Source: Candidatus Woesearchaeota archaeon
GTDB lineage: Archaea > Nanobdellota > Nanobdellia > Pacearchaeales > GW2011-AR1
Direction: 5' to 3'
NCBI GenBank assembly: GCA_964554415.1
Contig: CAZKON010000004.1
Coordinates: 1 to 24,000, forward strand
Length of the DNA: 24,000 nucleotides
Every line of letters starts with the position of its first letter. Within the stretch, counting starts at the first letter, position 1. The position numbers and the translations under genes were made by a program. Positions 1 through 18,651 of this stretch are shown here, piece by piece. A model generated the notes under the pieces. The model was not told where the DNA came from and did no database searches. It saw nothing but the letters and a program-made list of their open reading frames with translations.

Positions 1-215
1 CGTCAAGAACTTTCAGTTCTTGAGCGCTGTTGAGAATCAGGTGATTCTCAAAGTCTCCGGCGGTGTCAAGAATCCCAGACTAAAGTTTGGGGCGTGTCAG
101 GTGTTCTTGAGCACTTTCGAGAATCCCAGAAAACGAGAGGATTCTCGAAGTCACAAAACCACAACAAGCCTCGGCTTTCAAGCCGAGGTTAAAAACCCGA
201 AGGGTTTTGTGACAT
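1..215. repeat. Hairpin-cluster element, copy A (left side cut by window edge)
   Basis: Stems read directly: 3-10/16-23 (TCAAGAAC/GTTCTTGA); 31-38/43-50 (TGAGAATC/GATTCTCA); outer 66-72/104-110 enclosing 74-80/85-91 (loop TAAA); 117-126/139-148 (10 bp); 169-175/182-188; 192-198/202-208 (loop GAA). Positions 66-126 align base for base with 17229-17288. The 70-aa ORF 20..232 is read-through of this element. Confidence 0.75.
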
Positions 216-2330: not shown

Positions 2331-3074
2331 ATGCATACGACATGGCACGAGTTGCTACGCTTCGGGCTTACTGAAGGGGAAGCGAAAGTGTATGTGGCGC
2401 TACTCAGCACAGGCTCTTCAACTGTCGGACCAATTGTGAAAGAATCGGGTGTTGCCTACTCAAATGTGTACGGCATTCTGCAGCGTCTCATTGAGAAAGG
2501 CATTGTGAGCTTTATTATAAAGAACAAGACAAAATATTTTCAAGCAGTCACGCCTTCGAACTTGTATGTTTATCTGGAAAAAAAGGAACGCGAGATCGCG
2601 CAGCAAAAAACACAATTAAAAATCCTGATTCCGCAGCTTGTGAAGCTGCAGGACATACAGCCATCGCAGGCAGCAGAAGTGTATCTCGGTATTGTAGGCC
2701 TGCACACTGCATACGAGCGCCTGCTTGCCAATACTACAAAGAACAATGAAGACTGCTTTTTTTATATCCATGAGAAAGAATATGGAGAGACAGCAGATAC
2801 GTTTTATCTGAACATTCAGGGATTGTTGAAGCAGGTAAATCTGCGTGGTATCGCCAATGCAGAAGCGCGGGATTCTGACTTTTTCAAGAAAGTGAAATTT
2901 GGGAAATTTCGATATGCGAAATTTCCAATTCCGGGGAACATTGAGGTATGCAAAGAGCGTGTGCTTGTTGTCTCGTGGGAAAAGCCCATCATTGCCGTGC
3001 TTATCTACTCGGCGAGCATTGCCAATAATTTTCAGAGGTATTTTGAAGAAGCATGGAAGAATGCGCGGGCGTAG
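2331..3074 (+). CDS. TrmB-family transcriptional regulator
   Basis: N-terminal winged HTH typical of TrmB (LTEGEAKVYVALLSTGSSTVGPIVKESGVAYSNVYGILQRLIEKGIV), followed by a coiled segment and a C-terminal effector-like domain. Confidence 0.8.
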   Translation: MHTTWHELLRFGLTEGEAKVYVALLSTGSSTVGPIVKESGVAYSNVYGILQRLIEKGIVSFIIKNKTKYFQAVTPSNLYVYLEKKEREIAQQKTQLKILIPQLVKLQDIQPSQAAEVYLGIVGLHTAYERLLANTTKNNEDCFFYIHEKEYGETADTFYLNIQGLLKQVNLRGIANAEARDSDFFKKVKFGKFRYAKFPIPGNIEVCKERVLVVSWEKPIIAVLIYSASIANNFQRYFEEAWKNARA

Positions 3075-3455
3075 TTAGAGAATAAGGGTATTAGAAAACT
3101 GTTTAAAATGAGGATCTCCTGTAATAATCTGGGCATTTATTTTCCTTGAAGCAATAACGATACATGCATCTGCTAAACCGAATGTGGGGATTTTCTTTCG
3201 CGTTTCAGCATGCAAGATTCCTGCCTCTTTCGCCATGCGAGGAGTCATTTCAATTATCTTAGCATTTTTAATCATTGCATCGTACGCTATTTGGACATTT
3301 CCTTTTTTTCTTTTTACCTTGCTTACAACTTCTGCCAGCGTTGTACTAATTATAAAAATCTCGTTATCTGCCGTAAGAAAAGAGTTTACTTTCTCTCCTT
3401 CCTTGCCTCCTTCAAGATATTCAATCCAAGCATATGCATCAATATAATATCTCAT
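3075..3455 (-). CDS. vapC: PIN-domain ribonuclease toxin VapC
   Basis: 126 aa with PIN acidic residues in the expected order (YIDAY, LAEV, LADA, TGDPHF). Overlaps the upstream antitoxin gene by 4 nt (ATGA). Confidence 0.85.
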   Translation of the reverse strand: MRYYIDAYAWIEYLEGGKEGEKVNSFLTADNEIFIISTTLAEVVSKVKRKKGNVQIAYDAMIKNAKIIEMTPRMAKEAGILHAETRKKIPTFGLADACIVIASRKINAQIITGDPHFKQFSNTLIL

Positions 3456-3679
3456 TCGTCCAGTTGACCCTTGAATTTGTCCTCTTTTGTAAATTTTCCA
3501 ATGCCTTTTAATGCACCAAAGTAACTTTTTCTGCGCTTTTTTACCTTTATCTCAATCACTTCATCTTCCTGAAGACTTTCTGCTTTTACGAGCGGGGCAG
3601 GCAGTGTCACTACAAACGAGCCACCTATTCTGCGAACTGTCGCAAGAGTCGTTGTTTCTCCTTCAGTATTATATTCCAT
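3452..3679 (-). CDS. vapB: AbrB/SpoVT-type antitoxin VapB
   Basis: 75 aa with a swapped-hairpin-like segment (GGSFVVTLPAPLVKAESLQEDEVIEIKV). Translationally coupled to vapC. Confidence 0.75.
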   Translation of the reverse strand: MEYNTEGETTTLATVRRIGGSFVVTLPAPLVKAESLQEDEVIEIKVKKRRKSYFGALKGIGKFTKEDKFKGQLDE

Positions 3680-3688
3680 GTTATATTT

Positions 3689-3709
3689 TATATAATACGA
3701 TATTATATA
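3689..3709. promoter_or_regulatory. AT-rich inverted repeat overlapping the TATA region upstream of vapB
   Basis: TATATAATA-CGA-TATTATATA: 9-bp arms are exact reverse complements, located 10-30 nt upstream of the vapB ATG (3679). Candidate promoter plus autoregulatory operator. Confidence 0.35.
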
Positions 3710-3786
3710 AATCTTTCGATGGATTTTGCTTTCCGAATAGTGCCTGAAAAGTAAGACTTATCGGACAAAGCTACTCAAACCAGAGC

Positions 3787-3796
3787 ATTTAAATAG
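3787..3796 (+). promoter_or_regulatory. TATA-like box for the nucleotidyltransferase gene
   Basis: ATTTAAATAG centred about 26 nt upstream of the ATG at 3817. Confidence 0.5.
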
Positions 3797-3816
3797 AGTA
3801 TATACTCGTCTATACC

Positions 3817-4791
3817 ATGAAACTCATTAAGCAGGTTGTGGAAATCGGGAACGGCGCGGCAGTGTATGTGCCTAAAGAGTACCTTGGCCAGGTAGTGGCG
3901 CTTATTCTTCCTGAAGGAACTCGAGAAATCCAGCAACGCATTCTTACAGCTCTTGTGAGATATATGCCCAACATTCTTGGGGTATATCTGTACGGAAGCT
4001 ACGCGCGGGATGAGCAGCAGCCAGATTCAGATATTGATATTCTTGTCGTCACTAAAGAGAGAGATGCAACACTTAAAAGGCATCTGAATGATATCGACGC
4101 AAGAGTCCTTCCACTTGATGCAATCAGGAAAGCAATAAGAGAGCATCCTTTATTTATTGTGCCAGTCATTCGGGAAGCAAAAGTGTTATTAAATCCTGCT
4201 CTCTTGGAAGAGTTGCGCACTCTTCCATTCAATCGTGCACAATTTCAATGGCCCCTCAAAGAAGTCGAACGGACGGTAAAGATTATAGAGACTTTTCTTG
4301 CTTTGGATAGCGATACTGCACCCATTGCCCCCACACACCTGTATTCACTCATTCTGAGAATACGCGTCTGCTTCCTGATTGAATGCCTTTTACATAACAA
4401 GGCGTATACTCATAAACGCCTTAAGGAAAATCTGATGAAGCAGGGATTCAGGAGCGAAGCGATTGAGCGTTGGTTTTCAATCTATCGTGCAGTCAGAGAC
4501 AATGAAGAGCCGCGCATGCACATCAAAAAAACGATGCGCCCTCCGCACCTTAAAACCTCGAGAACTGCTGTTCTCGACGGCCGTCAAAAACCGAAGGTTT
4601 TTGAGGGGTGCGGTTTGGGGAGGCGCTCGTTTTTTGGATGCTCGGGGAGCAACTCCACCTTAAAAGGTGGAGTTTTCTGGAGGCTCCCCGACATAACAAA
4701 AGATGAGGTCTTAACTCTTATTTTATTTCTTAAGGCTTCGATAAAAAAACTCAGACATGAAACGAAAAAAACGGCTGGAAAAGGGTATTGA
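3817..4791 (+). CDS. Nucleotidyltransferase-domain (MNT-like) protein with AbrB/SpoVT-like N-terminus, interrupted in frame by a hairpin element
   Basis: Minimal NTase signature LGVYLYGSYARDEQQPDSDIDILVV (G-S ... D-x-D). The N-terminal MKLIKQVVEIGNGAAVYVPKEYLGQVV resembles an AbrB-type swapped hairpin. The helical C-terminal half is interrupted at about aa 241-291 by structured DNA. Confidence 0.75.
   Translation: MKLIKQVVEIGNGAAVYVPKEYLGQVVALILPEGTREIQQRILTALVRYMPNILGVYLYGSYARDEQQPDSDIDILVVTKERDATLKRHLNDIDARVLPLDAIRKAIREHPLFIVPVIREAKVLLNPALLEELRTLPFNRAQFQWPLKEVERTVKIIETFLALDSDTAPIAPTHLYSLILRIRVCFLIECLLHNKAYTHKRLKENLMKQGFRSEAIERWFSIYRAVRDNEEPRMHIKKTMRPPHLKTSRTAVLDGRQKPKVFEGCGLGRRSFFGCSGSNSTLKGGVFWRLPDITKDEVLTLILFLKASIKKLRHETKKTAGKGY
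4536..4691. repeat. Hairpin-cluster element, copy B, inside a CDS
   Basis: Helices 4536-4540/4622-4626 and 4543-4549/4607-4613 enclose hairpins 4558-4565/4570-4577 (loop TGCT) and 4584-4592/4596-4604 (loop GAA). Helix 4642-4650/4683-4691 encloses 4653-4659/4666-4672 (loop TTAAAA). Locally GC-rich relative to its surroundings. Confidence 0.7.
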
Positions 4792-9247: not shown

Positions 9248-9531
9248 AGAGATTTCCTAAGCCTTCGCTACATCAAGATTCTGGCAATCGAATCTTGAGT
9301 GCCGTCAAGGTTTGGAAAACCTTGAGGTCCCCACAGCAAGCTGATGGGGTATTACGCTCGGCTTCTAGACGGAAATCTCTAATTTCAAACTGGCGCAGCA
9401 AGCTGCGGGGTATTACACCCAGTTTGAAATAAACACTTGTTACAGAGAATTAGGATAATTGAGTTGTATTTTGTTCCTAATTCTCTGTCTGGATGATTAG
9501 GAAAACAGGAATCAAATTAACCTAATCATCC
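9248..9531. repeat. Hairpin-cluster region in the valS / AbrB-like divergent intergenic space
   Basis: A perfect 10-bp long-range helix AGAGATTTCC (9248-9257) / GGAAATCTCT (9371-9380) encloses hairpins 9273-9280/9291-9298, 9305-9313/9317-9325 and 9329-9333/9345-9349. It is followed by perfect stems 9382-9393/9419-9430 (12 bp), 9442-9454/9476-9488 (13 bp) and 9491-9501/9521-9531 (11 bp). Confidence 0.7.
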
Positions 9532-9540
9532 ATATTAACA

Positions 9541-9693
9541 ATGTGTATGATATGGAAAAGGAAAGTACTCAAAAACTTTCGGTTGAATTTGCCGCGAGAA
9601 ATTCGTACATTATTGAATGTAAAAGAAGGAGATGCTGTTGATTTTATTGCAGATGAAGGCAGGTTTATACTCAAGGAAATAGAGAAAATTTAA
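9541..9693 (+). CDS. AbrB/SpoVT-like mini-protein (orphan antitoxin-like), not in the supplied ORF track
   Basis: Own translation: MCMIWKRKVLKNFRLNLPREIRTLLNVKEGDAVDFIADEGRFILKEIEKI (50 aa). The RLNLPREIR...GDAVDF...GRFIL pattern is the AbrB/MazE swapped-hairpin signature. Confidence 0.55.
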   Translation: MCMIWKRKVLKNFRLNLPREIRTLLNVKEGDAVDFIADEGRFILKEIEKI

Positions 9694-12429: not shown

Positions 12430-12537
12430 ATTCTAACACATAAAAGAAAGCTTTTAAGGGTTTGGGAAGATTGTTCTTGACAAGAGACCAATCAAAGTCC
12501 TCTATACCATCAGAAAAGATGGCTTCTATCAAAGAAA

Positions 12538-12757: not shown

Positions 12758-12856
12758 AATACAAACTGCTTTCATACAATCTAGAAGGTTTTAACGTGAG
12801 CACAGCAATTTTCTATAAGTAGATTTTTCTAAGGATTTATCGCTTTTGCCCGCTAT

Positions 12857-12947
12857 GGAGAATTCGGTTGATTATGTTCCACTACATTCGAATTCTCCAG
12901 ACAGAGAATTTGGTACAAAAAGTAACTCAATTAACCAAATTCTCTGT
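12857..12947. repeat. Pair of long-stem hairpins between convergent genes
   Basis: GGAGAATTCG (12857-12866) / CGAATTCTCC (12889-12898): 10 bp, 22-nt loop. ACAGAGAATTTGG (12901-12913) / CCAAATTCTCTGT (12935-12947): 13 bp, 21-nt loop. The second has the same architecture as 9442-9488. Confidence 0.7.
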
Positions 12948-16369: not shown

Positions 16370-16771
16370 CTATTCGCGCCCGAAAGGCTCCAACTTCAGC
16401 CCGGGAATACGCTCAAAATGATTTGTATTTCTTGTGAGAAGAGACTCATTCCGGGAAATACAGATAGCAGCAATCATGATATCCGTAAGTTCAATCATTG
16501 CTCCAGCAGCCTTGAGTTGTTCAAAAATCTCTGCTGCTTTCTCTGAAGCTTCAAGAGTAAAATTGAGAATTGCAACGTTATTCAAAAAAAGTTCAACTGC
16601 GTCTTTTTGGCTTTTCTTGCTGAGGCGAAGGTTTCCGCGATAGAGTTCAAATGAATTAATGCTCGTGGTAAAAAGAGGTTGTTCCCTATCTTTCAGTGAG
16701 GTAATCATCTCAAAAATAGAGCGCTCATTCTTAAGGTAATCAATGATAATATCAGTATCAAGGCAGACCAT
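16370..16771 (-). CDS. vapC: PIN-domain ribonuclease toxin VapC
   Basis: 133 aa with MVCLDTDIIIDY, SFELY, LTDIMIAA and TRNTNHF, the conserved PIN acidic positions. The start overlaps the antitoxin stop by 1 nt (TAATG). Confidence 0.85.
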   Translation of the reverse strand: MVCLDTDIIIDYLKNERSIFEMITSLKDREQPLFTTSINSFELYRGNLRLSKKSQKDAVELFLNNVAILNFTLEASEKAAEIFEQLKAAGAMIELTDIMIAAICISRNESLLTRNTNHFERIPGLKLEPFGRE

Positions 16772-16986
16772 TACTTAAATCTCCGTGATGGCATCTTCCT
16801 CTCATCGTACAACTCCTTCTTAATGCGATCCGCATCTTCTTTGCTCCAGGATCCGGCGAGTTCACGAAGTGTTTTTTTCTTTTTTTCGCGTACAATCTCT
16901 ATAACAATTTCTGAGAAAGATTTTTCTTCATCAATTTTGCGCAATTCATTGTATGCTTCATCGGAGATGCTGATGACTTTAACCAT
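16771..16986 (-). CDS. vapB: VapB-type antitoxin (ribbon-helix-helix-like)
   Basis: 71 aa. MVKVISISDEAYNELRKI...SFSEIVIEIV is typical of small archaeal VapB partners of PIN toxins. Translationally coupled to vapC. Confidence 0.7.
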   Translation of the reverse strand: MVKVISISDEAYNELRKIDEEKSFSEIVIEIVREKKKKTLRELAGSWSKEDADRIKKELYDERKMPSRRFK

Positions 16987-17003: not shown

Positions 17004-17227
17004 TATGTATTTAAGCCTTTCGATGATTCAACGATAAACTATGCTAACACTGGTTAAAAATGTCAAGACAATGCCCTTTGGGCATCTAATTGGTTTATTA
17101 ATTGCCTCTGGTTTTTCTAATATTATCAATCATTATTTCTAATGGAAAGCATTATTATTAATTAAAATATGACCTATAAAGCTATCTTCCTCCATAGGAA
17201 ATAAAATGGGGTTAAAGTTTATATTAC

Positions 17228-17710
17228 TTCAAGAACCACCCACTAAAGTGGGTGGCGTGTCGTGGTTCTTGAGCACACTCGAGAATCCTTTATTACTCCC
17301 TGCTTAAGCAGGGAGATTGCATGATGTATTATAGGATTCTCGATGTATCAGATAATGCATTAACCAAAAAGCTTGTGAATCTCCCCGCCCAAGGGTTTGC
17401 CTTCGGCAAATCCGCCTGCTGGCGGAGTGGGGCATCCAAGAAAACCAAGAACCGAAGCGGACTCATATTTGAGATAATTATCTCTTAAATAAAAGAAGAT
17501 GCTTGGGAAGTATAGAAGACTTTAGGGGTTCGTCAAGAACTTCGAGAATATGCTTATTCTCGACAGCTTCAGAAACCTCTTGTTTCTGACAGTGCTCAGA
17601 AATAGAATATTTCTGACATGCTCAAGAATTTGCCAATTCTTGACATCTGCTGATTCTTGAACGCATCCAAGAACCAGAGGTTCTTGGTGTGTCAAAGTCT
17701 TCTATACTAC
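17228..17710. repeat. Hairpin-cluster element, copy C (largest): composite nested hairpins, GC-rich three-hairpin module, and a 14-bp-closed tandem hairpin array
   Basis: 17229-17235/17266-17272 encloses 17236-17243/17248-17255 (loop TAAA). 17279-17288/17334-17343 (10 bp) encloses 17296-17303/17308-17315. Also 17396-17401/17405-17410 and 17411-17416/17421-17426 (loop TGCT). 17510-17523/17694-17707 (14 bp, perfect) encloses hairpins starting at 17542, 17569, 17596, 17622 and 17667. No ORF. Confidence 0.8.
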
Positions 17711-17721
17711 AAGCTAGATTT

Positions 17722-18651
17722 TTACTTATAACTAGATAATACCGAACGTAAAAAGCGCTGATCTACTGCATCAAATCCCAATGAATCATCCATATAAAAC
17801 ATAAGAGAAGTTGATTTTAGTTTTCCATCCTCATATAAATAATTTGAGCTTCGCCATGCGCCGACACCATTGCAATTATAGTAGCAGCCTGTTCCCTCGA
17901 GACAACCGATGCCTCTGTCTGTTTCATCACGGAAAGGAACACATCGCGTTTTATAAAATGAATCAATTTCAGTTCTCCAAAAACAATTATTATTTGACTT
18001 GCATAAATTTTCTGAAAGGTCTTTACAATAATCATAAAGCACACCAGAAGGTTCTTTTTGAGAATCTGTACACCATTTAGGACAACCATCAACGTCACAA
18101 TTAGGCATATCTTTCAAATTAAGACCATATCCATTAAATTCACCTCTTACTCGCTTTTGATCAGTTAATCCAAGTAAATGAGCAAACTCATGGACAGTTT
18201 CGATATGACCGTTACTACTAATAAGATTATCTAGAGAGATGGTAAGAGCAATCTTTCCCCCACCCCCCGACTTTCCCTTACCCACTGACTCCGCCCATCC
18301 TCCAGTTTTTTCTGAATCCTTATTATCCCAAATAATTATTGCATGATCATAAGGAATCTCTGATAAAGATAGCCAATCCTTCACGTCTGCTATACATTGA
18401 AAGGGATTATCAGCAAAATAACAATGTTTTTGTAAAAAGAAAGATTCAAGAGAAGGAGGCATTTTTTCAATTTTATAAAAATTAAACTTGTTTCTGTCTG
18501 ATTTAAAAGGTTCATAGTAAAGAATTCCCTTGTACTTACTCTCACTATCAATTTGCTCCAAAACATTCTTATCAAAATCCTCGGGATTAGAAAAATCAAG
18601 ACCGATAAATACGACATCTAACTTATCCTCGGGCTTTCCATTAATAAGCAC
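17722..18651 (-). CDS. Zinc metalloprotease domain protein (HExxH, peptidase M64-like) with Cys-rich C-terminus; probably the 3' part of a longer frameshifted gene
   Basis: HEFAHLLGLTD zincin motif preceded by an M64-like layout (DVVFIGLDF...PF...FNFYKIE...IIIWDN...GGWAE). The track start is a GTG with no signal peptide. The frame stays open upstream with no stop up to and beyond the G7 tract at 18849-18855, and contains no ATG. Confidence 0.7.
   Translation of the reverse strand: MLINGKPEDKLDVVFIGLDFSNPEDFDKNVLEQIDSESKYKGILYYEPFKSDRNKFNFYKIEKMPPSLESFFLQKHCYFADNPFQCIADVKDWLSLSEIPYDHAIIIWDNKDSEKTGGWAESVGKGKSGGGGKIALTISLDNLISSNGHIETVHEFAHLLGLTDQKRVRGEFNGYGLNLKDMPNCDVDGCPKWCTDSQKEPSGVLYDYCKDLSENLCKSNNNCFWRTEIDSFYKTRCVPFRDETDRGIGCLEGTGCYYNCNGVGAWRSSNYLYEDGKLKSTSLMFYMDDSLGFDAVDQRFLRSVLSSYK

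What the first reader, a model, noticed from the sequence alone, without database searches (positions are those of the whole stretch)
17507..17710. Tandem array of ~27-nt hairpin units with compensatory stem changes, closed by a perfect 14-bp helix
GTATAGAAGACTTT (17510-17523) is the exact reverse complement of AAAGTCTTCTATAC (17694-17707). Inside, four consecutive units repeat with a 26-27 nt period. They are TCGAGAATA-TGCT-TATTCTCGA-CAGCT (from 17542), TCAGAAAC-CTCTT-GTTTCTGA-CAGTGC (17569), TCAGAAAT-AGAAT-ATTTCTGA-CATGC (17596) and TCAAGAATT-TGCC-AATTCTTGA-CATCTGC (17622). These are followed by CCAAGAACC-AGA-GGTTCTTGG (17667-17687). Unit ends (TC..GAA / TTC..GA, spacer CA..GC) are conserved, while interior stem positions differ between units yet always stay complementary. 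Pairing rather than sequence therefore appears to be maintained. A two-unit version with the same flanks (CGTCAAGAACTT ... TCAAAGTCT) sits at 1-58, so unit number varies between copies. It is not a CRISPR (no spacers, non-identical repeats), is not coding, and matches no RNA family I recognise. Candidate explanations are a novel multi-hairpin structured RNA, a REP/BIME- or IS200/605-derived (PATE-like) palindromic element family of this lineage, or an array of dyad-symmetric protein-binding sites.
Basis: partly seen in the sequence, partly recalled or inferred. Interest (0 to 1): 0.85.

Follow-up and report, generated by a model that had tools for sequence, protein, structure and literature searches.

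The report
Palindromic repeat mosaic in DPANN archaeon
The hairpin array is real, but it is one nested copy of a short palindromic repeat family scattered through the genomes of tiny DPANN archaea (even inside genes), resembling bacterial REP and Rickettsia RPE "selfish" repeats, and is not a stand-alone RNA gene.

Summary
A perfect 15-bp inverted repeat (17509-17523 / 17694-17708) encloses six perfect 8-9 bp hairpins whose stem interiors differ but stay paired. The fold z-score is about -9 on both strands.

It is not a unique structured RNA. The host is a DPANN archaeon. The same unit, (T/C)G-TCAAGAAYY-loop-RRTTCTTGA-G-C(A/G), recurs in four other intergenic stretches of the window. It occurs hundreds of times in related contigs and in MAGs labelled Nanoarchaeota, Woese-, Pace- and Micrarchaeota. 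Bacterial and viral hits were at chance level.

- Units are 86% intergenic and show no orientation bias toward flanking genes.
- They usually form head-to-head dimers.
- Unit number differs at an orthologous site (4 versus 2 units).
- Some copies sit in frame inside genes, including a 48-aa insert in a G6PD.

The window element is a nested mosaic. A host palindrome carries a two-hairpin dimer. A 106-nt four-unit module lies inside one of those hairpins.

Pairing beyond the conserved 7-mer is strongly maintained, so single-strand hairpins matter rather than double-stranded half-sites. No Rfam hit, no RAYT link and no published description were found.

Best reading: a REP/BIME/RPE-like, probably mobile, palindromic element family, and a new variant of a known kind. 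What it does, and what moves it, are unproven.

The parts
17509..17523 (.). Left arm of the closing 15-bp inverted repeat (AGTATAGAAGACTTT). It is the arm of a repeated 'host palindrome' module.
   Evidence: (I2) shows 100% complementarity. The same module, TATAGARGACTTT...AAAGTCYTCTAT, occurs in L005 15091, L056 6662 and L212 3766. It occurs 'empty' (closing helix only) in L005 4617 and L090. The A/T versus G/C difference between the window and L005 is compensatory.
17694..17708 (.). Right arm of the closing inverted repeat (AAAGTCTTCTATACT).
17667..17687 (-). First hairpin of the resident dimer (CCAAGAACC aga GGTTCTTGG).
   Evidence: Its homologue in L005 15110 is CCAAGAATT tcc AATTCTTGG, a compensatory CC/GG to TT/AA change.
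17645..17660 (-). 5' arm (read on the minus strand, TCAAGAATC) plus the remaining loop (AGCAGAT) of the second hairpin of the resident dimer. This hairpin is interrupted by the four-unit module.
   Evidence: After removing 106 nt, the window element matches L005 15091-15185 at 81 of 95 positions.
17539..17644 (-). The 106-nt four-unit tandem module (boundaries +/-1 nt). On the minus strand it reads GTCAAGAATT..GAGCATGTCAGAAATA..GAGCACTGTCAGAAAC..GAAGCTGTCGAGAATA..CGAAGT. It lies between the loop and the 3' arm of the host hairpin.
   Evidence: It is homologous to the free-standing array at L005 8718-8822, with conserved linkers and differing but still paired stems. Two-unit versions occur in L032, L090, L156 and L221. 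The covariance model scores are higher on the minus strand.
17542..17563 (-). Unit TCGAGAATA tgct TATTCTCGA.
   Evidence: The unit is identical in L156 and L221.
17569..17589 (-). Unit TCAGAAAC ctctt GTTTCTGA.
17596..17616 (-). Unit TCAGAAATA gaa TATTTCTGA.
   Evidence: It is the best covariance model hit in the window (36.8 bits, E = 5e-8, minus strand).
17622..17643 (-). Unit TCAAGAATT tgcc AATTCTTGA.
17527..17538 (-). 3' arm of the interrupted host hairpin (TCTTGA) plus the conserved linker CGAACC that leads to the closing helix.
17229..17343 (+). Neighbouring dimer of the same family with nested inner hairpins. One unit is TCAAGAACCAC[..ACTAAAGT..GGCGTG..]GTGGTTCTTGA. The other is TCGAGAATCCT[..CTCCCTGCttaaGCAGGGAG..]AGGATTCTCGA. 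The linker is GCACAC.
   Evidence: The sub-family with the inner ACTAAAGT/GGCGTG hairpin occurs in L010, L014, L039, L063, L090 and L212.
1..149 (+). Cluster of four family units (3-23, 30-51, 66-110, 116-149), cut by the window start.
4552..4610 (.). Two-unit element (TCGAGAAC.., linker CGGCCG, TCAAAAACC..) enclosed by an outer helix CCTCCGCACC / GGTGCGG..GGAGG.
   Evidence: The homologue is at L005 1244-1296.
9273..9331 (+). Two family units (TCAAGATTC.., TCAAGGTTT..) lying between divergent genes.
12470..12510 (-). Decayed remnant of the same host-palindrome element (..TTCTTGAC..TCAAAGTCCTCTATACC). It lies at the position orthologous to the intact L005 15091 copy.

Best explanation
The feature is a nested mosaic of short palindromic repeat units. 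The units belong to a family dispersed through the intergenic DNA of DPANN archaea.

The unit is a 9-bp stem (TCAAGAAYY / RRTTCTTGA) with a 3-5 nt loop. It is extended by two further base pairs beyond a single bulged G on the 3' side.

Units occur as singletons, mostly as head-to-head dimers, rarely as tandem arrays, and often inside the loops of other palindromes.

At this locus three layers are nested:
1. A ~100-bp 'host palindrome' element forms the outer 15-bp closing helix.
2. That element carries a two-hairpin dimer.
3. A 106-nt module of four tandem units lies between the loop and the 3' arm of one hairpin of that dimer.

The copy behaves as repetitive DNA that is probably or was formerly mobile, and non-autonomous, of the REP/BIME, RPE or MITE kind. 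It is not a dedicated gene.

The following steps are shown:
- Copies are dispersed.
- Composite copies lie in non-syntenic contexts in different genomes.
- Unit number changes at orthologous sites.
- A copy is inserted in frame in a conserved enzyme.
- Pairing is maintained by double changes.

The following steps are inferred:
- The hairpin must form on a single strand. The bulge and the conserved G.T point to one particular strand.
- An unidentified enzyme or host factor recognises the hairpin in that single-stranded form.
- New copies prefer the single-stranded loops of existing palindromes.
- Arrays grow or shrink by recombination or slippage between the conserved linkers.

Any host-level effect, such as protecting RNA 3' ends or insulating neighbouring genes, would be secondary and is unproven.
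For: Host identity: archaeal eRF1 and ATP-dependent DNA ligase are present. The nearest named ligase homologues come from Nanoarchaeota and Pacearchaeota MAGs.

Family size and placement:
- 622 perfect family hairpins occur in 1.67 Mb of sequence. 86% lie in the 19% of sequence that is not ORF.
- The covariance model finds 22 hits in the window, all in five intergenic stretches.

Distribution:
- All 52 hits labelled DPANN or other archaeon show extra stem complementarity, against 2 of 12 bacterial hits.
- The four viral hits lack stem complementarity, as expected of chance matches.

Arrangement: head-to-head dimers outnumber the reverse arrangement 55 to 2. Arrays of four or more units make up 10 of 382 clusters.

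Turnover:
- A 112-nt block is present in L005 but absent at the window's DHH/UPPS gene junction.
- At an orthologous site L005 has 4 units and L032 has 2. The difference is a clean 50-nt indel at unit boundaries.
- An intact element in L005 corresponds to a remnant in the window.
- Copies of one composite sit next to unrelated genes in different genomes.

Nesting: removing 106 nt restores 81/95 identity to L005 15091. The removed piece is homologous to the free-standing array at L005 8718.

Mobility into genes: the same composite forms a 48-aa in-frame insert in a G6PD. The insert is absent from all five aligned homologues. Other copies lie in FtsY, in an intein and in an LPG synthase.

Pairing is selected or regenerated:
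- One search shows 230 units with two or more extra pairs, against 26 expected.
- One search shows the lower-stem pair as U-A in 73 units and C-G in 17, with a covariation score of 0.316 against 0.157 for shuffles.
- One search shows the same pattern with RNAalifold.

Closest published description: CGTC/TGTC-tagged REPs have 8-9 bp stems, 4-5 nt loops, predominantly head-to-head dimers, no dedicated transposase and intragenic copies, and their dimers are inserted inside host palindromes (PMC3733652).
Against: - No transposase or other cognate enzyme was found. One Y1 transposase gene abuts units in L204. Three other Y1 transposase contexts have none.
- No unambiguous target-site duplication or clean empty site was seen for this copy.
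- The unit consensus is the same across MAGs labelled as different DPANN phyla and across GC of 25-57%. That is unusual for fast-evolving selfish repeats and may point to a conserved host function.
- Density is about twice as high in convergent as in divergent spacers (1.2 versus 0.58 clusters per kb). This fits either avoidance of promoters or a role at gene 3' ends.
- Gene calls in the related loci are a simple long-ORF heuristic.
- The loci were chosen because they contain a dimer, so counts are biased toward dimers.
- No transcript data are available.
Confidence: 0.65

Rival explanations
1. Host-functional hairpins. The units would be cis-acting RNA elements that a conserved DPANN factor recognises. 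Possible roles are protecting RNA 3' ends, punctuating transcripts or blocking read-through. Head-to-head dimers would serve both transcription directions, and this array would be a reinforced version placed after the 309-aa gene. This is not exclusive of a selfish origin, because bacterial REPs are thought to do both.
For: - The consensus is conserved across MAGs labelled as different DPANN phyla despite very different GC content.
- There is structural covariation, including a two-pair lower stem and a one-sided bulged G.
- G.T occurs at stem position 3 in 14 units, against A.C in 1, on the strand defined by the bulge.
- Clusters are about twice as dense in convergent as in divergent spacers.
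- The window array's preferred strand is the sense strand of both flanking genes.
Against: - Units and tandem arrays show no orientation bias toward flanking genes. The counts are 33 sense versus 32 antisense. For arrays, the upstream gene is on the same strand in 8 cases and the opposite strand in 15.
- Distances to stop codons are broad, with a median of 138 nt.
- No U-tract follows the stems.
- A close relative with the same synteny (L009) has none.
- Copies occur inside ORFs.
- Taken over all stem positions, G.T versus A.C is 15 versus 7, which is not significant.
Confidence: 0.3
2. A stand-alone, novel multi-hairpin non-coding RNA gene. The closing helix plus the hairpin array would together form one functional molecule.
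For: - The fold is very stable, with a z-score near -9.
- A closing helix is present, and the stems show compensatory differences between the window and L005.
Against: - There is no Rfam match, even at E = 10.
- Both strands fold equally well.
- The 'molecule' is assembled from three independently occurring modules.
- Homologues carry 0, 2 or 4+ units.
- One homologue lies inside a G6PD coding sequence.
- No promoter or terminator was defined.
Confidence: 0.07
3. An array of dyad-symmetric binding sites for a dimeric DNA-binding protein acting on duplex DNA, such as a regulator or a nucleoid or partition protein.
For: - The half-site TCAAGAA / TTCTTGA is conserved.
- Dimers have two-fold symmetry, with the palindromic linker GCATGC.
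- Sites are intergenic.
Against: - Positions 8-9, outside the conserved half-site, are truly complementary. T-A occurs 147 times and C-G 142 times, against T.G 6 and C.A 2. A pyrimidine/purine preference alone would not produce this.
- Loops vary from 3 to over 60 nt, including nested hairpins.
- The bulge is asymmetric.
- No gene family is enriched next to the sites.
- No TATA-like element occurs at a fixed distance.
Confidence: 0.08
4. The perfect stems come from a DNA-level process, not from selection. Examples are quasipalindrome correction by intrastrand template switching, or gene conversion within hairpins. In that case the 'compensatory' changes would say nothing about function.
For: - Stems are almost always perfect Watson-Crick (298 perfect against 103 with one non-Watson-Crick pair).
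- Both strands fold equally well.
- Quasipalindrome correction by template switching is an established mutational mechanism (general knowledge, not tested here).
Against: - It explains neither the conserved one-sided bulge nor the conserved G.T at stem position 3. Correction would erase both.
- It does not explain why the unit sequence is conserved across MAGs labelled as different phyla.
Confidence: 0.15

Closest known systems
CGTC/TGTC-tagged REPs of bacteria (Di Nocera et al. 2013, PMC3733652; includes Neisseria dRS3 and Rickettsia RPE-4/RPE-6)
   Same: - The unit begins with (T/C)GTC.
- Stems are 8-9 bp, with A-T pairs right after the tag, and loops are 3-5 nt.
- Head-to-head dimers predominate.
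- Sub-families have alternative complementary stem residues.
- Dimers are inserted inside other palindromes.
- Some copies are intragenic.
- There is no dedicated transposase.
- Copies prefer unidirectional and convergent spacers.
   Different: - The hosts here are archaeal (DPANN). The paper reports bacteria only.
- Here the tag is base-paired. TC pairs with GA, and (T/C)G pairs with C(A/G) beyond a bulged G. In the paper it is an unpaired end motif.
- The tail is G-C(A/G), not CCA.
- The stem sequence TCAAGAAYY is distinct.
- The tandem (head-to-tail) array of the window is an arrangement the paper calls negligible for CGTC elements.
- Sequence homology to those families was not tested.
Enterobacterial and Pseudomonas REP/BIME and REPIN-RAYT systems
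   Same: - They are short intergenic palindromes in high copy.
- They form mosaic clusters with conserved linkers.
- The common form is the inverted doublet.
- G.T pairs in the stems hint at a single-strand form.
   Different: - There is no GTAG tag.
- No flanked RAYT gene was found.
- The two halves of a dimer usually differ in sequence, so each folds on its own and not as one long REPIN hairpin.
Rickettsia palindromic elements (RPE)
   Same: Palindromic repeats of a reduced-genome symbiont lineage insert in frame into protein-coding genes and add a peptide segment. Here the examples are a 48-aa insert in G6PD, plus copies in FtsY, an intein and an LPG synthase.
   Different: - The host domain is different.
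- The window copy itself is intergenic.
- The sequence relationship was not tested.
- No structural evidence shows that the inserted peptide is tolerated.
Modular MITEs such as pneumococcal BOX elements (A-Bn-C) - recalled from general knowledge, not tested
   Same: Terminal inverted-repeat-like ends close a variable number of internal tandem modules, and the element folds into a stable multi-hairpin structure.
   Different: - Here the internal modules are themselves the dispersed REP-like unit.
- No target-site duplication was defined, and no partner IS is known.

Membership tests
REP/BIME with RAYT (GTAG super-family) | Short (20-40 bp) palindromes in high copy, mainly extragenic | tested here: met
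   622 perfect units occur in 1.67 Mb, and 86% of them lie in the 19% of sequence that is not ORF.
REP/BIME with RAYT (GTAG super-family) | Conserved GTAG tetranucleotide at one end | tested here: not met
   Flank profiles show (T/C)GTC, never GTAG.
REP/BIME with RAYT (GTAG super-family) | A single-copy Y1 (RAYT) transposase gene flanked by the repeats | tested here: not met
   A tblastn search of the 1.67 Mb found two Y1_Tnp genes, both cut by contig ends. Only the one in L204 abuts units, and only on one side. Three homologue contexts (L248, L253, L254) carry no family hairpins. Sampling is limited to these loci, and whole genomes were not searched.
CGTC-tagged REPs (PMC3733652) | Terminal CGTC (or TGTC/CCTC) motif, described as unpaired | tested here: inconclusive
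   The motif is present (TGTC 73 and CGTC 17 of 101 units). However, it is base-paired here: TC pairs with GA, and (T/C)G pairs with C(A/G) beyond a bulged G.
CGTC-tagged REPs (PMC3733652) | Stem of 8-9 bp, loop of 4-5 nt, A-T pairs at the first stem positions | tested here: met
   The commonest stem length is 9 bp, with most stems 8-10 bp. The commonest loops are 3-4 nt. AA/TT follows the tag in 75-97% of units.
CGTC-tagged REPs (PMC3733652) | Short unpaired 3-nt tail, mostly CCA | tested here: not met
   The 3' flank is G then C(A/G)(T/C).
CGTC-tagged REPs (PMC3733652) | Head-to-head dimers predominant, tandem dimers negligible | tested here: met
   There are 55 AB clusters against 2 BA clusters, and about 75% of units are followed by an inverted unit. 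The window's four-unit tandem array is an exception to this rule.
Rickettsia RPE-like intragenic palindromes | In-frame insertion within conserved protein-coding genes | tested here: met
   This was met for a homologous copy, not for the window copy. The L212 G6PD carries a 48-aa insert that equals the composite element and is absent from five aligned homologues.
MITE | Terminal inverted repeats | tested here: met
   A 15-bp perfect inverted repeat bounds the element. The same ends recur in L005, L056, L090 and L212.
MITE | Target-site duplication and a cognate autonomous IS with the same ends | tested here: inconclusive
   The TA or TATAGAG at both ends cannot be told apart from the inverted repeat itself. 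No IS with these ends was seen in the loci held.
IS200/IS605-derived PATE | Sub-terminal hairpins matching those of a resident IS200/IS605 element | tested here: not met
   The Y1_Tnp elements in L204, L248, L253 and L254 carry different, GC-rich hairpins.
CRISPR array | Near-identical direct repeats separated by unique spacers of similar length | tested here: not met
   The units differ from one another and are joined by 5-7 nt conserved linkers. The CRISPR repeat models matched only by chance (E = 3-5), at other coordinates.
Any Rfam family | Score at or above the family's gathering threshold | tested here: not met
   There were 0 hits in the window at gathering thresholds. Nothing overlapped 17507-17710 at E <= 10. 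In 12 related loci only tRNAs were found.

The most novel reading that the evidence does not exclude
The unit could be the recognition element of a conserved, still unidentified DPANN-specific system and not plain selfish DNA. One possibility is a domesticated single-strand nuclease or transposase working with its repeats, in the way RAYTs work with REPINs. Another is a host RNA- or DNA-binding factor that marks self nucleic acid, transcript ends or DNA to be taken up. Either would explain three observations: the same 9-bp stem with its bulged G persists across MAGs labelled as different DPANN phyla with GC of 25-57%; a G.T pair is conserved on one strand; and head-to-head dimers are strongly preferred. 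It would be the first REP-type system described in archaea.
Probability: 0.2. Interest if true: 0.8.

Novelty: new variant of a known kind. Interest (0 to 1): 0.55.

Why it matters
- REP, BIME and RPE-type palindromic repeats are known from bacteria. No description for archaea or DPANN turned up in the literature held.
- A family shared by MAGs labelled Nanoarchaeota, Woese-, Pace- and Micrarchaeota would give a lineage marker.
- It would explain why these genomes assemble poorly at intergenic spacers. Contigs break at the repeats.
- It is a warning for annotation. ORFs run through the repeats, and proteins carry repeat-encoded inserts.
- It parallels Rickettsia, another reduced-genome symbiont whose proteins carry palindromic inserts.
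- If a cognate protein exists, the conserved hairpin provides a direct bait for finding it.

Tried and rejected
- **Rfam:** there was nothing at gathering thresholds, nothing at E = 10, and only tRNAs in 12 related loci. No tRNA or tmRNA lies in the window.
- **Tandem Repeats Finder:** it does not report the array, because the units are too divergent.
- **First genome scan:** a scan with the ligase protein found nothing, because the peptide patterns were too strict.
- **H/ACA idea:** an ACA follows each stem on the + strand. I rejected this because the ACA is simply the complement of the TGT of the (T/C)GTC tag. The units also show no K-turn-like sequence on inspection, and no pseudouridylation pocket was looked for.
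- **C/D box, K-turn and bulge-helix-bulge readings:** no box sequences and no 3-nt bulges are present.
- **Intrinsic terminator:** no T-run follows the stems.
- **Promoter or TATA association:** no positional enrichment was found.
- **Operator of a neighbouring gene:** no gene family is enriched beside the clusters.
- **RAYT/IS200 link:** there is one adjacency (L204) and three negative contexts. The hits were then confirmed as Y1_Tnp by Pfam.
- **Viral carriage:** only four viral hits were found, and none has stem complementarity, as expected of chance matches.
- **Coding repeat:** a 57-aa ORF runs through the array on the minus strand, but only because two of the three frames of the unit lack stops. 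The array lies between a stop codon and the next gene.
- **RNA strand from wobble pairs:** the asymmetry is strong only at stem position 3 (14 versus 1). Over all positions it is 15 versus 7, which is not significant.
- **TBP-downstream spacer comparison:** aligning the window with L005 gave replaced, non-alignable sequence, not a clean insertion.
Full report

Yes. Reading 17300-17900 and the repeat search show a perfect 15-bp inverted repeat. AGTATAGAAGACTTT (17509-17523) pairs with AAAGTCTTCTATACT (17694-17708).

Between the arms lie perfect hairpins at these positions:
- 17542: 9-bp stem, 4-nt loop
- 17569: 8-bp stem, 5-nt loop
- 17596: 9-bp stem, 3-nt loop
- 17622: 9-bp stem, 4-nt loop
- 17667: 9-bp stem, 3-nt loop

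TCAAGAA at 17533 also pairs with TTCTTGA at 17654 and encloses the four tandem units.

The 208-nt segment folds at -84.3 kcal/mol on the + strand and -81.9 on the - strand. Shuffles average about -46. The z-scores are -8.9 and -8.7, and 0 of 200 shuffles fold as well.

Tandem Repeats Finder does not report the array, because the units are too divergent. Rfam finds nothing at gathering thresholds and nothing over the element at E <= 10. No tRNA is present.

**2. Host and surroundings**

The window encodes eRF1, an archaeal-type ATP-dependent DNA ligase, TBP, a class I tRNA synthetase, several toxin-antitoxin pairs and large Laminin_G_3 surface-type proteins.

The closest named ligase homologues come from Nanoarchaeota and Pacearchaeota MAGs. 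The host is therefore a DPANN archaeon, with 41% GC.

The element lies on the + strand between two minus-strand genes. On one side is the stop codon of a 309-aa ORF (17722-18651, no Pfam match). On the other is a vapBC operon.

**3. The hairpins belong to a family**

A scan of the window for perfect hairpins finds the same kind of unit, TC(A/G)AGAA..TTCT(T/C)GA, in four other places:
- 1-149
- 4552-4610, again enclosed by an outer helix
- 9273-9331
- 17229-17343

A relative whose ligase is 89% identical (L005/L006/L007) carries the units in at least six intergenic spacers. A more distant relative with similar synteny (L009, 75% identical) has none, and L010 has two.

I then scanned the public collections with a two-unit pattern, GTCAAGAA N7-13 TTCTTGAGC N2-5 TCNNNAA. 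The results were:
- Window: one match, none expected by chance.
- Of the first 80 genome loci, 52 carry Nanoarchaeota, Woese-, Pace-, Micrarchaeota or other archaeal labels. All 52 show extra stem complementarity.
- 16 loci carry a TPA label 'uncultured Methanosarcinales', quoted as deposited. 13 of them show extra stem complementarity.
- 12 loci are bacterial. Only 2 show any extra stem complementarity, which is chance level.
- IMG/VR gave four hits, none with stem complementarity.

Contig GC among the hits ranges from 25% to 57%.

**4. Anatomy of the unit**

The sample is 1.67 Mb of sequence (the window plus the fetched loci). It holds 622 perfect family hairpins.
- The commonest stem length is 9 bp.
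- The commonest loops are 3-4 nt. About 100 units have loops of 30 nt or more that contain further hairpins.
- The arm consensus is T-C-A-A-G-A-A-Y-Y.
- The flanks are G..G or C..C in equal numbers. This is one asymmetric unit seen on either strand.

On the strand I call 'A-sense' the unit reads 5'-(T/C)G-[TCAAGAAYY loop RRTTCTTGA]-G-C(A/G)-3'. The stem continues for two more pairs beyond a single bulged G.

I tested this on an alignment of 101 distinct units (A4). Only the outer 7 bp and the flank G were imposed during selection. The free pairs behaved as follows:
- Pair 8: 95% paired (C-G 50, U-A 36, A-U 7).
- Pair 9: 81% paired.
- Lower-stem pair 1: G-C in 92 of 101 units.
- Lower-stem pair 2: U-A in 73 and C-G in 17, so TGTC..GAGCA alternates with CGTC..GAGCG.
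- Covariation score: 0.316, against 0.157 +/- 0.008 for shuffles. The score collapses when the partners are slid by a few columns.

RNAalifold finds the same bulged lower stem on its own.

An independent test used 341 units chosen only for a perfect outer 7 bp. 230 have two or more extra pairs, against 26 expected. The 8th pair is T-A in 147 and C-G in 142, against T.G in 6 and C.A in 2.

So it is true complementarity that is maintained, not just a pyrimidine/purine preference. This argues for a hairpin on a single strand and against duplex half-sites.

**5. Arrangement and genomic behaviour**

- 86% of units lie in the 19% of sequence not covered by long ORFs.
- The usual form is a head-to-head dimer with the 3' ends facing: (A)TG-unit-GCATGC-unit-CA(T). 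There are 55 such clusters against 2 in the reverse order. About three quarters of units are followed by an inverted partner.
- Clusters of four or more hairpins are rare (10 of 382). The window cluster, with 6, is among the largest.
- Cluster density is 1.2 per kb in convergent spacers, 0.77 in co-directional spacers and 0.58 in divergent spacers.
- Distances to stop codons are broad, with a median of 138 nt.
- Orientation is unrelated to flanking genes. The counts are 33 sense against 32 antisense. For tandem arrays the upstream gene is on the same strand in 8 cases and the opposite strand in 15.
- No T-run and no TATA-like element sits at a fixed distance.
- No gene family is enriched beside the clusters.

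One strand-specific feature besides the bulge was found. At stem position 3, G.T occurs 14 times against A.C once on the A-sense strand. Summed over all positions the contrast is 15 against 7 (p = 0.13).

**6. Evidence for turnover and mobility**

(a) L005 has a 112-nt palindromic block at the DHH/UPPS junction. The two genes abut in the window.

(b) At the orthologous site after the Laminin_G_3 gene, L005 has four units and L032 has two. The difference is a clean 50-nt indel at unit boundaries.

(c) An intact closing-helix element at L005 15091 corresponds to a decayed remnant at window 12470-12510.

(d) Copies of one composite, with conserved flanks, lie next to unrelated genes in different genomes.

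(e) The closing-helix module occurs 'empty' in L005 4617 and L090. It occurs filled with a dimer in L005 15091, L056 and L212. It occurs filled and further expanded in the window.

(f) In L212 the composite lies inside a glucose-6-phosphate dehydrogenase gene with the reading frame kept. It adds 48 residues that are absent from all five aligned homologues, which are 37-62% identical. The Pfam G6PD_C match is split into two stretches, consistent with the insert.

(g) Other copies lie in the FtsY A-domain (for L051 and L062; L088 carries a similar dimer in ORF-like flanks), in the intein of a MoxR ATPase and in an LPG synthase. Two of the three frames of the unit lack stop codons, which makes such inserts tolerable.

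**7. What this particular locus is**

Read on the minus strand, the element is: TATAGAAGACTTTGACACA - [CCAAGAACC tct GGTTCTTGG] - ATGCGT - [TCAAGAATC agcagat ^ TCTTGA] - CGAACCCCTAAAGTCTTCTATA.

At the caret lies a 106-nt segment (window 17539-17644, +/-1 nt) that begins GTCAAG and ends CGAAGT. With that segment removed, the element matches L005 15091-15185 at 81 of 95 positions. The differences include compensatory changes:
- CC/GG against TT/AA in the CCAAGAA hairpin.
- A-T against G-C in the closing helix.

The 106-nt segment is itself homologous to the free-standing four-unit array at L005 8718-8822. The linkers are conserved (GAGCATGTC, GAGCACTGTC, GAAGCT(G/A)TC, CGAAGT), while the stems and loops differ but stay paired.

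Two-unit versions occur in L032, L090, L156 and L221. The last unit in L156 and L221 is identical to the window's.

The locus is therefore three nested layers: host palindrome, then dimer, then tandem module. No target duplication is evident at the inner junction.

**8. Mechanism, and what is shown versus inferred**

Shown:
- The family is dispersed, variable and able to invade genes.
- Its hairpin pairing is maintained through double changes.
- It has a strand-asymmetric architecture.

Inferred (confidence about 0.65 for the class, and lower for the mechanism):
- These are non-autonomous palindromic elements of the REP/BIME, RPE or MITE kind.
- Their propagation or retention needs the hairpin to form on a single strand.
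- New copies prefer the loops of existing palindromes.
- Arrays change length by recombination or slippage at the conserved linkers.

I found no cognate enzyme. It found two Y1_Tnp genes, which Pfam confirmed. One abuts three units in L204. Three homologue contexts carry only their own GC-rich hairpins.

A secondary host role remains possible, for example protecting RNA 3' ends or acting as a bidirectional insulator. The cross-phylum conservation of the consensus and the enrichment in convergent spacers keep it alive. The lack of any orientation bias argues against a simple role on the mRNA sense strand.

**9. Comparison with what is known**

The closest published description is the CGTC-tagged REP super-family (PMC3733652). 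Its features are:
- a terminal CGTC motif, often TGTC
- stems of 8-9 bp that start with A-T pairs
- loops of 4-5 nt
- predominantly head-to-head dimers
- alternative complementary stem variants
- dimers inserted within host palindromes
- intragenic copies (Rickettsia RPE-4 and RPE-6)
- no dedicated transposase

The differences here are:
- The tag is base-paired, not unpaired.
- The tail is G-C(A/G), not CCA.
- The hosts are archaeal.
- The window shows a tandem array, which that paper calls negligible for CGTC elements.

I therefore describe the family as working like a REP/RPE family. I do not file it as a member of the CGTC families.

GTAG/RAYT REPs, IS200/IS605-derived PATEs, CRISPR and all Rfam families each fail at least one defining feature (see the membership table).

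Four full-text searches found no description of such a family in DPANN. One of them used the literal motif strings, and the dimer 13-mer TTCTTGAGCATGC occurs in no paper held.

**10. Verdict**

The family is DPANN-wide, not lineage-private.
- The stand-alone RNA and duplex binding-site options are disfavoured.
- Novelty: a new variant of a known kind.
- Interest is moderate (0.55). The locus itself is ordinary repeat DNA. What merits follow-up is a conserved REP/RPE-like family that spans MAGs labelled as different DPANN phyla, inserts into proteins and has no known enzyme.

**Limits**

- Gene calls in the related loci are a long-ORF heuristic.
- The loci were selected for containing a dimer.
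- Taxon labels are quoted as deposited.
- No expression data or complete genomes were available.

Noticed in passing
window 9444-9486, 9490-9532, 12856-12899, 12903-12945; L005 335, 383, 13381, 13424, 15366, 17155-17262: A second, different hairpin family. Stems are 11-14 bp and loops are 19-22 nt. The loops are conserved (~ACAAAAnnnAACTCAATTA), and the hairpins come as inverted pairs. In L005 one such pair flanks a single TCAAGAAC unit, and the whole 112-nt block is missing from the window's DHH/UPPS junction.
   Followed up: partly
window 9331-9360 and 9396-9425 (inside TTTCAAACTGG...CCAGTTTGAAA); L025, L036, L040, L041, L093, L121, L131: A third recurrent hairpin, C(N)GCAGCAAGCTGC(N)G followed by GGTATT(A/T)C. 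It is repeatedly found beside family dimers in several genomes, which suggests larger composite repeats.
   Followed up: no
window 66-110 and 17229-17272; L010, L014, L039, L063, L090, L212: A sub-family of units carries a conserved inner hairpin (..ACTAAAGT..) followed by GGCGTG. The inner stems covary. In 7 of 8 copies the insert has the same orientation relative to the unit's bulge.
   Followed up: partly
L212 3763-3906 (G6PD gene 2708-4186); L051 and L062 (FtsY), L088 (similar dimer in ORF-like flanks); L146 (intein of a MoxR-type ATPase); L128 (LPG synthase): Family elements sit inside protein-coding genes with the reading frame kept. The G6PD insert of 48 aa is absent from all aligned homologues. 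In one frame the dimer reads ..EHAQEP..VLD.. as peptide.
   Followed up: partly
window 17722-18651 (-): The 309-aa ORF next to the element has no Pfam match. It contains an HExxH motif (HEFAHLLGL) and a Cys-rich C-terminal half. In the syntenic region of the close relative L005, it and the adjacent vapBC pair are replaced by a nucleotidyltransferase-type gene pair.
   Followed up: no
window 3817-4791 (+): The 324-aa ORF (DUF2080 plus nucleotidyltransferase domains in its first ~125 residues) runs straight through the two-unit element at 4552-4610 and a further hairpin at 4651-4674. Its 3' half may be a repeat-driven ORF extension.
   Followed up: no
L204 5170-5758 (-): An IS200-family Y1 transposase gene is cut by the contig end. 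The position usually held by the catalytic Tyr in the ..WSPGKF.. motif reads K (judged by eye against recalled IS200/IS605 TnpA motifs; no alignment was made). The gene is followed by its own GC-rich hairpin and then by three family units. Three homologous transposase loci have no family units.
   Followed up: yes
window 169-208 (-), just after the eRF1 stop: Two GC-richer hairpins occur here (CCTCGGCT ttca AGCCGAGG; AAAACCC gaa GGGTTTT). Read on the gene's strand, the second is followed by a T-run. This is a terminator-like signal distinct from the repeat family.
   Followed up: no
L001-L004 (Logan contigs of the same organism): Short-read assemblies of this organism break at these repeats. 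L002 starts inside the hairpin at window 17236. None of the four contigs extends into the 17507-17710 element.
   Followed up: no
window 3075-3679, 9538-9693, 16370-16986: The window is dense in toxin-antitoxin genes (PIN with MazE/AbrB, a lone AbrB-type gene, VapBC). These and the repeat-filled spacers are the parts that differ most from the syntenic relative L005.
   Followed up: no
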